Origin: Escherichia coli | GTDB taxonomy: Bacteria > Pseudomonadota > Gammaproteobacteria > Enterobacterales > Enterobacteriaceae | Length of the DNA: 64,000 nt | Assembly: GCF_036507355.1 (NCBI RefSeq) | Contig: NZ_AP027877.1 | Strand: one strand, 5' to 3' | In this document: positions 48,502-51,620 of the stretch, piece by piece | Numbering within the stretch: position 1 is the stretch's first letter | Layout of the letters: each line of letters opens with the position of its first letter | The notes under the pieces: model-generated | Database searches by the model: none | What the model was told of the DNA's origin: nothing | What the model saw: the letters and a program-made list of their open reading frames with translations, nothing else | Made by a program: the position numbers and the translations under genes

Positions 48502-50480
<1,979 letters not shown>

Positions 50481-50482
<2 letters not shown>

Positions 50483-51620
50483 GTCAGAGCCCCTCGATCT
50501 CAATCAGTTAGCGCAAAAAATTAAACAGTGGGGGCTGGAACTGGGCTTTCAGCAGGTAGGTATTACCGATACCGATCTCAGCGAGTCCGAGCCCAAACTG
50601 CAAGCATGGCTGGACAAACAATACCACGGCGAAATGGACTGGATGGCACGTCACGGTATGTTGCGCGCCCGCCCTCACGAATTATTGCCCGGTACGCTGC
50701 GCGTGATCAGCGTGCGGATGAATTACCTTCCTGCTAACGCCGCATTTGCCAGCACGCTGAAAAACCCCAAACTCGGCTATGTCAGCCGTTATGCGCTGGG
50801 CCGTGACTATCACAAACTTCTGCGCAACCGACTCAAAAAGCTGGGCGAGATGATTCAGCAACATTGTGTTTCGCTGAATTTTAGACCGTTTGTCGATTCT
50901 GCGCCTATTCTCGAGCGCCCGTTAGCTGAAAAAGCTGGGCTCGGCTGGACAGGTAAGCACTCACTTATCCTCAATCGCGAGGCCGGTTCGTTCTTCTTTT
51001 TAGGCGAATTGCTGGTCGATATTCCGCTGCCCGTGGATCAACCAGTCGAGGAAGGATGCGGCAAATGCGTGGCCTGTATGACGATTTGCCCGACCGGTGC
51101 CATCGTCGAGCCATATACCGTCGATGCTCGCCGCTGTATCTCTTATCTCACCATCGAACTGGAAGGGGCGATCCCGGAAGAGTTGCGACCGTTAATGGGA
51201 AACCGTATTTACGGTTGCGATGACTGCCAGCTTATCTGCCCGTGGAATCGCTATTCACAACTCACTACAGAAGACGATTTCAGCCCGCGTAAGCCGCTAC
51301 ACGCACCGGAACTCATTGAGTTATTCGCCTGGAGCGAAGAGAAGTTTTTAAAAGTCACGGAAGGATCGGCGATTCGTCGTATTGGTCACCTGCGTTGGCT
51401 GCGTAATATCACCGTAGCATTAGGCAATGCGCCCTGGGATGAAACGATTCTGGCGGCGCTGGAGAGTCGCAAAGGTGAGCACCCACTTCTTGATGAGCAC
51501 ATAGCGTGGGCGATGGCGCAGCAAATCGAGAGGCGAAATGCGTGCATAGTCGAAGTGCAATTGCCGAAAAAACAGCGTCTGGTTCGGGTAATTGAAAAAG
51601 GGTTACCGCGTGACGCCTGA
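50481..51620 (+). CDS. queG: Epoxyqueuosine reductase (4Fe-4S)
   Basis: ORF track 50373..51620; ATG at 50481 gives [18 protein letters not shown]..., 379 aa; CxxCxxC ferredoxin motifs. Confidence 0.9.

What the first reader, a model, noticed from the sequence alone, without database searches (positions are those of the whole stretch)
50465..50483. Divergent nnr and queG start codons overlap in a CATG palindrome
With the starts that give the recalled protein lengths (nnr 515 aa, queG 379 aa), the minus-strand nnr ATG (50480-50482) and the plus-strand queG ATG (50481-50483) share two nucleotides. Each gene's promoter and 5' UTR must therefore lie inside the other's coding sequence. An alternative nnr start at 50467 lacks a Shine-Dalgarno sequence.
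Basis: partly seen in the sequence, partly recalled or inferred. Interest (0 to 1): 0.3.

Follow-up and report, generated by a model that had tools for sequence, protein, structure and literature searches.

The report
Head-to-head overlapping queG and nnr starts
Two oppositely oriented housekeeping genes, queG and nnr, really do begin inside one shared CATG, so each gene's expression signals sit inside the other's coding sequence; this is real and conserved, but it is already in the reference annotation and in published lists of overlapping transcripts.

Summary
Window 50480-50483 is CATG. The + strand ATG (50481-50483) opens the 379-codon queG ORF, and the - strand ATG (50482-50480) opens the 515-codon nnr ORF. 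E. coli K-12 MG1655 and PGAP annotate the same 2-nt overlap.

Comparison of 81 Enterobacteriaceae genomes supports both starts. The queG ATG is present in 81/81. The nnr first ATG is usable in 76/81, and in 20 species it is the only start ahead of the conserved SIPH motif. The alternative ATG at 50467 has no Shine-Dalgarno sequence and is often not a start codon.

The inference about intragenic signals is also supported:
- The nnr Shine-Dalgarno GAGGGG lies in queG codons 3-5.
- An invariant extended -10 element (TGGTATACT) for queG lies in nnr codons 12-15, the segment deleted as "PqueG" in a published strain.
- A published RNase III/p19 dsRNA cluster maps to window 50462-50817.
- queG-nnr is already listed as a divergent excludon.

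A tight head-to-head spacing (-2 to 22 nt) recurs in six of seven distant lineages that keep the pair.

Verdict: real, conserved and already known. Interest is low to moderate. The new contribution here is the comparative evidence that synonymous sites in both genes are constrained by the other gene's signals.

The parts
50480..50483 (.). CATG holding both start codons (queG ATG 50481-50483 on +; nnr ATG 50482-50480 on -)
   Evidence: Sequence; same overlap annotated in K-12 and by PGAP; CATG with both ORFs in frame in 76/81 Enterobacteriaceae
50481..51620 (+). queG coding sequence, 379 codons (epoxyqueuosine reductase)
   Evidence: ORF and translation; 1e-49 match to solved QueG 5d08, with E. 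coli residue 6 aligned to about native residue 2-3 of B. subtilis QueG; ATG present in 81/81 species and no conserved upstream alternative
48935..50482 (-). nnr coding sequence, 515 codons (NAD(P)HX epimerase/dehydratase)
   Evidence: ORF; match to solved Nnr TM0922 2ax3; annotation
50490..50495 (-). nnr Shine-Dalgarno sequence GAGGGG, 7 nt before the ATG, formed by queG codons 3-5 (GAG CCC CTC)
   Evidence: Duplex with the anti-SD -7.2 kcal/mol, top ~5% of random 20-mers; positions -13 to -8 are 95-100% conserved across 81 species
50441..50449 (+). Predicted queG promoter: extended -10 element TGGTATACT, formed by nnr codons 12-15 (AGT ATA CCA CAC)
   Evidence: nnr positions +33 to +43 are 98-100% conserved; third positions of codons 12-14 are invariant and form the top 4-codon window of nnr; this segment is what the delta-PqueG primer of PMC10950094 deletes. 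The -35 is poor (TCGGCG) and the consensus scanner did not call the site
50455..50480 (+). Predicted queG 5' leader (~25 nt, GUUUUUCUUCAUUGUAUGGUCCGUC), U-rich, unstructured, without a Shine-Dalgarno sequence
   Evidence: Start inferred from the -10 position; the published dsRNA cluster ends at window 50462, 5-7 nt inside it; anti-SD duplex -2.2 kcal/mol, which is background; fold -3.0 kcal/mol over 70 nt
50465..50467 (-). Alternative in-frame nnr ATG (codon 6, MKKNP...)
   Evidence: No Shine-Dalgarno sequence (-3.2 kcal/mol); at this position ATG in 31, GTG in 16, TTG in 9 and no start codon in 20 of 81 species; it is the start actually used in four Kosakonia-clade genomes with a 1-nt insertion
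50470..50518 (.). Near-invariant 49-nt block spanning both translation initiation regions (nnr -36 to +12; queG codons 1-12 plus 11 nt of its leader)
   Evidence: All positions at least 90% conserved except two; queG codons 2-12 third positions 0.93 against a gene mean of 0.66, rank 1 of all 11-codon windows; control amiB codons 2-12 = 0.68
50462..50817 (.). Region corresponding to published p19-captured RNase III dsRNA cluster S-361 (yjeS/yjeF, 5' overlap type)
   Evidence: PMC7373196 Table 2, U00096.2 4,391,754-4,392,109; offset of 1,977 nt to NC_000913.3 verified on two other clusters
50872..50887 (-). Block B, GGTCTAAAATTCAGCG: candidate nnr promoter -10 (TAAAAT preceded by TC), about 390 nt upstream of the nnr ATG, inside queG codons 131-136
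   Evidence: Invariant in 79 species; third positions 0.997; forces a rare AGA Arg codon in queG; lies just beyond the dsRNA cluster boundary; not conserved in distant lineages. The promoter role is inferred and no transcription start data were obtained
50944..50969 (-). Block A, AGGATAAGTGAGTGCTTACCTGTCCA: invariant imperfect hairpin or inverted repeat inside queG codons ~153-161; function unknown
   Evidence: Invariant in 79 species including synonymous sites; not conserved in distant lineages

Best explanation
queG and nnr are a genuine head-to-head gene pair whose start codons share the AT of one CATG. There is no intergenic DNA, so each gene's expression signals are written into the other's first codons. 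Shown or strongly supported: nnr is translated from the first ATG using a Shine-Dalgarno sequence (GAGGGG) that is also queG codons 3-5. queG is transcribed from an extended -10 promoter (TGGTATACT) that is also nnr codons 12-15, giving a short U-rich leader of about 25 nt without a Shine-Dalgarno sequence. nnr transcripts start at least 335 nt upstream, inside queG; a candidate -10 lies at window 50883-50878, and there is also read-through from yjeV/glyVXY. The two promoters therefore face each other, and the two mRNAs are complementary over at least 355 nt. In E. coli K-12 they form double-stranded RNA that RNase III cuts. Inferred: this face-to-face arrangement makes expression of the two genes mutually antagonistic, through polymerase collision and dsRNA cleavage, as in an excludon. 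The dual use of the DNA is what holds about 49 nt at the junction, and the -10 element, almost invariant across Enterobacteriaceae.
For: Sequence and ORFs. Identical annotation in K-12 and by PGAP. queG ATG in 81/81 species with no conserved alternative, and an N-terminus that matches solved QueG. nnr first ATG in 80/81; in S. arizonae it is ATT but codon 2 has become ATG, and S. enterica and S. diarizonae have ATG ATG. In 20 species the first ATG is the only start ahead of the conserved SIPH motif. Shine-Dalgarno strength is -7.2 kcal/mol for the first ATG against -3.2 for the second. Synonymous-site conservation is 0.93 for queG codons 2-12 (gene mean 0.66, rank 1) and 1.00 for nnr codons 12-14; the control amiB start scores 0.68. 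The delta-PqueG deletion of PMC10950094 removes exactly the TGGTATACT segment. dsRNA cluster S-361 maps to window 50462-50817. queG-nnr is listed among 16 divergent excludons of MG1655, and yjeV-queG-nnr as a non-contiguous operon (PMC12288877). Spacers of -2, -2, 6, 11, 22 and 22 nt in six of seven distant lineages that keep the pair show that intragenic promoters are the rule for it.
Against: I could not retrieve a transcription start table, a start-codon ribosome-profiling result or an N-terminal peptide for either gene, so both promoters and the nnr start rest on conservation and indirect published data. The consensus promoter scanner found nothing in 49900-51100; the proposed queG promoter has no -35 and the proposed nnr -10 has none either. 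Four Kosakonia-clade genomes use the second ATG yet still conserve ATGACGGACCAT, so conservation of the first ATG is not by itself proof that it is the nnr start. Some automated gene callers choose the second ATG, giving 510 aa. Mutual antagonism of expression has not been measured for this pair in anything I read.
Confidence: 0.72

Rival explanations
1. In Escherichia, Nnr is translated mainly or only from the second ATG (window 50467, MKKNP...). The coding sequences then do not overlap. The first ATG is conserved because it belongs to the queG leader and initiation region, or because it starts a short upstream reading frame.
For: Four Kosakonia-clade genomes carry a 1-nt insertion that puts the first ATG out of frame (a 20-21 codon upstream ORF) and must use the second ATG, yet ATGACGGACCAT stays conserved. 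The solved Nnr fold starts after residue ~13, so residues 1-5 are structurally dispensable. Some gene callers pick the 510-aa form.
Against: The second position is not a start codon in 20 of 81 species and is GTG or TTG in 25 more. It has no Shine-Dalgarno sequence (-3.2 kcal/mol), whereas the first ATG has a strong, invariant one at ideal spacing (-7.2). When the first ATG is lost in S. arizonae, an ATG appears at the adjacent codon rather than leaving the distal one as the only start.
Confidence: 0.12
2. The overlap is real but has no regulatory role. It is the end point of genome compaction between two unrelated housekeeping genes. The complementary transcripts and dsRNA are by-products, and conservation only reflects the need to keep two sets of ordinary signals intact.
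For: There is no obvious functional link between epoxyqueuosine reduction and NAD(P)HX repair (established knowledge of both enzymes). Spacing varies from -2 to 194 nt in distant lineages, and the pair is broken in 3 of 10, so exact overlap is not required. S. arizonae and Kosakonia tolerate loss of the overlap. I found no published measurement of reciprocal expression.
Against: The head-to-head pairing with spacers of 22 nt or less persists in six of seven distant lineages that keep the pair, at 45-50% protein identity. Divergent overlaps are strongly under-represented in prokaryotes (PMC2174442). [quoted passage not shown] ExcludonFinder reports higher synteny for excludon pairs in general.
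Confidence: 0.3
3. queG starts elsewhere: either as a leaderless mRNA beginning at its ATG (from the TATGGT hexamer at 50470-50475), or from an upstream in-frame GTG (the ORF opens at 50373).
For: queG has no Shine-Dalgarno sequence. TATGGT lies 5 nt before the ATG. The ORF is open for 36 codons upstream.
Against: The dsRNA cluster extends 19 nt upstream of the queG ATG, so queG-strand RNA has a leader. TATGGT is lost in Buttiauxella. Upstream in-frame starts differ between species, and one species has a stop three codons upstream. The QueG N-terminus aligns to the start of B. subtilis QueG.
Confidence: 0.05

Closest known systems
Divergent excludons (overlapping 5' transcripts of neighbouring opposite-strand genes; first described in Listeria, catalogued for E. 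coli by ExcludonFinder, PMC12288877)
   Same: [quoted passage not shown]
   Different: Most listed excludons have an intergenic region (mean 95 nt in E. coli). Here there is none, and the start codons themselves overlap. Mutually exclusive expression, the functional hallmark, has not been shown for this pair.
Divergent (5'-5') overlapping gene pairs in prokaryote annotations (Lillo and Krakauer 2007, PMC2174442)
   Same: Two coding sequences on opposite strands overlapping at their 5' ends.
   Different: That class is strongly under-represented and often suspected of start mis-annotation. In this case both starts have comparative support across 81 species.
Face-to-face (convergent) promoter pairs causing transcriptional interference, e.g. 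coliphage 186 pR/pL (own knowledge)
   Same: Two promoters firing toward each other across a few hundred base pairs; here about 415 bp between the predicted starts.
   Different: The phage case is a developmental switch with measured interference. Here both promoters lie inside housekeeping genes, and interference is only inferred.
Co-directional 4-nt ATGA start/stop overlaps with translational coupling (PMC2716372)
   Same: A minimal overlap built on a short multi-purpose tetranucleotide.
   Different: Those genes share one mRNA and ribosomes couple them. The CATG overlap is on opposite strands and on separate mRNAs, so no translational coupling is possible.

Membership tests
Divergent overlapping gene pair | Two protein-coding genes on opposite strands whose 5' ends overlap | tested here: met
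   ORFs and coordinates; reference annotation
Divergent overlapping gene pair | Both annotated start codons are the ones actually used | tested here: inconclusive
   Strong comparative support and structural fit for QueG, but no direct start-codon or N-terminal data were retrievable. The Kosakonia clade uses the second nnr ATG.
Divergent excludon | Overlapping 5' transcripts from the two genes | tested here: met
   Published RNA-seq classification (queG-nnr in ExcludonFinder Table 1) and the 5'-type dsRNA cluster, which I mapped to window 50462-50817
Divergent excludon | dsRNA formed and processed by RNase III | tested here: met
   p19-captured ~21-nt dsRNA cluster S-361, 5,635 RPM, also seen by dsRNA antibody pull-down according to Table 2 of PMC7373196
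Divergent excludon | Mutually exclusive or antagonistic expression of the two genes | not testable with these tools
   Needs expression measurements with promoter or rnc mutants
Extended -10 sigma-70 promoter (for queG) | TG at -15/-14 one base upstream of a -10 hexamer close to TATAAT, with A at position 2 and T at position 6 | tested here: met
   TGGTATACT at window 50441-50449; invariant across 81 species including synonymous sites
Extended -10 sigma-70 promoter (for queG) | Transcription starts 6-8 nt downstream and depends on the element | not testable with these tools
   Indirect only: the dsRNA cluster ends 5-7 nt inside the predicted start, and the segment was deleted as delta-PqueG in PMC10950094
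Shine-Dalgarno-led initiation (for nnr first ATG) | Purine-rich anti-SD complement 5-9 nt upstream of the start codon | tested here: met
   GAGGGG, 7-nt spacing, -7.2 kcal/mol, 95-100% conserved
Shine-Dalgarno-led initiation (for queG) | Purine-rich anti-SD complement 5-9 nt upstream of the start codon | tested here: not met
   Best duplex -2.2 kcal/mol, equal to the random mean; leader U-rich and unstructured

The most novel reading that the evidence does not exclude
The 49-nt invariant junction, together with the two Enterobacteriaceae-specific invariant blocks inside queG (A and B), forms a dedicated bidirectional control module. It would be a regulator binding site or an antisense-RNA switch, possibly driven by a stationary-phase (sigma-S type TCTAAAAT) promoter. 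It would set the balance between queuosine maturation and the large nnr-tsaE-amiB-mutL-miaA-hfq superoperon, rather than merely being two ordinary sets of signals packed together.
Probability: 0.12. Interest if true: 0.45.

Novelty: already known. Interest (0 to 1): 0.2.

Why it matters
This is a clean natural example of dual-use DNA. A ribosome-binding site is written in the codons of the opposite-strand gene, and a promoter is written in the codons of its partner, and both visibly freeze synonymous sites across a bacterial family. That matters for gene annotation, because divergent overlaps are usually distrusted. It matters for codon-level evolutionary analyses, because synonymous sites here are not neutral. 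It also matters for genome engineering: recoding or deleting the 5' end of either gene will disturb the other, and nnr heads the superoperon that contains mutL, miaA and hfq. The basic facts are not new.

Tried and rejected
- **Transcription start and start-codon tables:** I looked in the supplements of Cappable-seq (PMC4782308), Kim 2012 (PMC3415461), Conway 2014, SMRT-Cappable-seq (PMC6131387), TRAINSPOTTER N-terminomics (PMC13245402) and the Ribo-RET preprint. Nothing for these genes was held as text. Thomason 2015 is not held. The Term-seq preprint gave only 3' ends.
- **Consensus promoter and terminator scan of 49900-51100:** no sites. The scanner requires both hexamers, so it misses promoters without a -35.
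- **Rfam scan of 50300-51100:** no match.
- **Conserved RNA structure sequestering the nnr Shine-Dalgarno sequence:** the predicted GGGG/CCCC pairing is weak (-7.9 kcal/mol over 90 nt) and the CCCC is not conserved. Rejected.
- **Sigma-54, sigma-32 and sigma-E readings of blocks A and B:** checked by eye against consensus spacing and rejected.
- **Word-indexed protein search:** it returned only Enterobacteriaceae and did not help with distant taxa; the representative search did.
- **Leaderless queG:** considered and rejected (see rivals).

Full report
**1. The observation**

Window 50480-50483 reads CATG. The + strand ATG (50481-50483) opens an ORF translating [18 protein letters not shown]... 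that runs 379 codons to 51620. The - strand ATG (50482-50480) opens [15 protein letters not shown]..., 515 codons ending at 48935. The second in-frame nnr ATG is at 50467-50465.

The window is an Escherichia sequence: 97-98% identical to most E. coli, and 99.3% to the closest. In K-12 MG1655, queG (complement 4392928..4394067) and nnr (4394066..4395613) are annotated with the same 2-nt overlap. PGAP annotates the nearest strain the same way.

**2. Are the two starts real?**

I fetched 80 species-level Enterobacteriaceae loci and compared the junctions.

*queG.* The ATG is present in 81/81 sequences. Upstream in-frame start codons differ from species to species, and one species has a stop three codons upstream. 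E. coli QueG residue 6 aligns to about native residue 2-3 of the crystallised B. subtilis QueG. This start is secure.

*nnr.* The evidence favours the first ATG:
- It is present in 80/81 sequences.
- The exception is informative. S. enterica subsp. arizonae has ATT ATG GAC, so codon 2 has become ATG. S. diarizonae and S. enterica have ATG ATG.
- The position of the second ATG is ATG in 31 species, GTG in 16, TTG in 9 and not a start codon in 20 (Buttiauxella, Cedecea, Dryocola, Atlantibacter, C. sedlakii and others). In those 20, the first ATG is the only start ahead of the conserved SIPHxxW motif.
- The first ATG has GAGGGG 7 nt upstream (-7.2 kcal/mol against the anti-SD, top ~5% of random 20-mers). 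The second ATG scores -3.2.

Two caveats apply:
- Four Kosakonia-clade genomes carry a 1-nt insertion. The first ATG then opens only a 20-21 codon out-of-frame ORF, and nnr must start at the second ATG. Residues 1-5 are therefore dispensable, which fits the solved Nnr fold beginning after residue ~13.
- Some automated callers choose the 510-aa form.

I could not retrieve direct start-codon or N-terminal data.

**3. Where are the signals?**

Conservation across the aligned loci shows the usual third-position wobble in both genes (mean 0.66 for queG, 0.61 for nnr), with two sharp exceptions near the junction.

*First exception.* A 49-nt block (nnr -36 to +12; window 50470-50518) is at least 90% conserved at all but two positions.
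- queG codons 2-12 score 0.93 at third positions, the top 11-codon window of the gene.
- A control gene start in the same loci, amiB codons 2-12, scores 0.68.
- The block contains the nnr Shine-Dalgarno sequence (window 50495-50490, which is queG codons 3-5) and both initiation regions.

*Second exception.* nnr +33 to +43 (AGTATACCACA) is invariant.
- On the queG strand it reads TGTGGTATACT. This is an extended -10 promoter element (TGGTATACT, window 50441-50449) with no usable -35.
- It predicts a queG transcription start at about 50455-50457 and a U-rich, unstructured leader of about 25 nt.
- queG has no Shine-Dalgarno sequence (-2.2 kcal/mol).

The consensus scanner did not call this promoter, because it requires both hexamers.

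**4. Published evidence that bears on this**

- The datA study PMC10950094 built a delta-PqueG strain. Its primer joins ...AAAAACCCCG directly to CGATATCCGCC, which removes TAAGTATACCACACACCGTCTGGCACGCCGA. That is exactly the element found above.
- Huang et al. 2020 (PMC7373196) list p19-captured dsRNA cluster S-361, "yjeS, yjeF, 5' overlap", at U00096.2 4,391,754-4,392,109. [quoted passage not shown]
- I verified the 1,977-nt offset to NC_000913.3 on two other clusters from the same table. The cluster then maps to window 50462-50817.
- One end of the cluster lies 5-7 nt inside the predicted queG start. The other end shows that nnr-strand RNA begins at least 335 nt upstream of the nnr ATG, inside queG.
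- ExcludonFinder (PMC12288877) lists queG-nnr among the 16 divergent excludons of MG1655, and yjeV-queG-nnr as one of three non-contiguous operons.
- Conway et al. 2014 describe yjeF (nnr) as the first gene of the most complex E. coli operon, with 14 genes and 8 promoters.

**5. Candidate nnr promoter**

Two further invariant blocks lie inside queG on the nnr strand.

*Block B* (GGTCTAAAATTCAGCG; window 50887-50872) covers queG codons 131-136 and forces an invariant rare AGA arginine codon. It contains TAAAAT preceded by TC and lies 54 nt beyond the dsRNA cluster edge. I propose it as the -10 of an nnr promoter, with a start at about 50871 and a 5' UTR of about 389 nt.

*Block A* (AGGATAAGTGAGTGCTTACCTGTCCA; window about 50969-50944) is an imperfect inverted repeat of unknown role.

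Neither block is conserved in distant lineages. Both assignments are inferences.

**6. Depth of the arrangement**

I took ten representatives at 45-50% Nnr identity and looked up their contigs.
- In seven, queG is the divergent neighbour of nnr.
- After correcting starts by eye, the spacers are -2 (CATG; L083), -2 (CATG; L085), 6, 11, 22, 22 and 194 nt.
- In six of the seven lineages that keep the pair, there is too little intergenic DNA to hold a promoter. Intragenic, face-to-face promoters are therefore an old property of this pair, and the CATG overlap is its extreme form.

Divergent overlaps are strongly under-represented in prokaryotes. This is attributed to the need for upstream signals (PMC2174442).

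**7. Mechanism**

*Shown or strongly supported:*
- The start codons overlap.
- The nnr Shine-Dalgarno sequence lies in queG codons.
- The queG -10 element lies in nnr codons.
- The two mRNAs are complementary over at least 355 nt and form RNase III-processed dsRNA.

*Inferred:*
- The exact transcription starts.
- Block B as the nnr promoter.
- That the arrangement makes the two genes antagonise each other, in excludon fashion.

The alternative that the overlap is functionally neutral compaction remains plausible (about 0.3).

**8. Verdict**

The arrangement is already known from the annotation and from the dsRNA and excludon papers. The modest new content is the comparative demonstration of dual-use sequence constraint, the natural variants (S. 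arizonae, Kosakonia), and the deep conservation of the tight head-to-head pairing. Interest is 0.2.

Noticed in passing
window 50872-50887 (- strand): Block B, GGTCTAAAATTCAGCG, is invariant in 79 Enterobacteriaceae inside queG codons 131-136. It includes synonymous sites and a rare AGA Arg codon. It looks like a -10 element (TCTAAAAT) without a -35, and may be the nnr promoter.
   Followed up: partly
window 50944-50969 (- strand): Block A, AGGATAAGTGAGTGCTTACCTGTCCA, is invariant inside queG (GWTGKHSLI codons). It forms an imperfect inverted repeat or hairpin, is absent from distant lineages, and has no known function.
   Followed up: partly
L055, L056, L061, L064 (Kosakonia cowanii, K. arachidis, K. 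oryziphila and a soil MAG), junction near the nnr start: A 1-nt insertion after ATGACGGACCATA puts the conserved first ATG out of frame. It becomes a 20-21 codon upstream ORF overlapping the real nnr start at the second ATG. This is a natural test of whether the first five codons matter.
   Followed up: partly
L018 (S. enterica subsp. arizonae) and L016 (subsp. diarizonae), nnr start: The arizonae locus has ATT ATG GAC: the first ATG is lost, codon 2 is ATG, and the queG ATG is kept as AATG. The diarizonae locus and S. enterica have ATG ATG. The nnr start has shifted by one codon, which removes the overlap.
   Followed up: yes
window 48935-48963: The nnr 3' end and the tsaE start overlap by 29 nt on the same strand (tsaE 48502-48963; nnr ends 48935). 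The same overlap is annotated in K-12. This is longer than the usual 1- or 4-nt co-directional overlap.
   Followed up: no
window 51890-52188 (- strand): There are three tandem tRNA-Gly(GCC) genes (glyVXY). The region between them and the queG 3' end corresponds to the DnaA-inactivating datA locus discussed in PMC10950094. Read-through from these tRNAs runs antisense across queG toward nnr.
   Followed up: partly
L092 positions ~1870-1915: In one distant lineage the queG-nnr spacer has expanded to 194 nt and contains a (GTAATC)n tandem hexamer repeat.
   Followed up: no
L026 (record titled Chryseobacterium sp. 18061): This contig carries an Enterobacteriaceae-type queG-nnr locus (79% Nnr identity, nearly identical to L046, 'Citrobacter sp. 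18056'). The assembly is probably mislabelled or contaminated.
   Followed up: no
bioRxiv 10.1101/2020.07.18.207399 supplement (K-12 coordinate 4395282, + strand): Term-seq reports a strong RNA 3' end inside yjeF/nnr, about 1.2 kb into the gene. This suggests premature termination or processing within nnr, upstream of tsaE.
   Followed up: no
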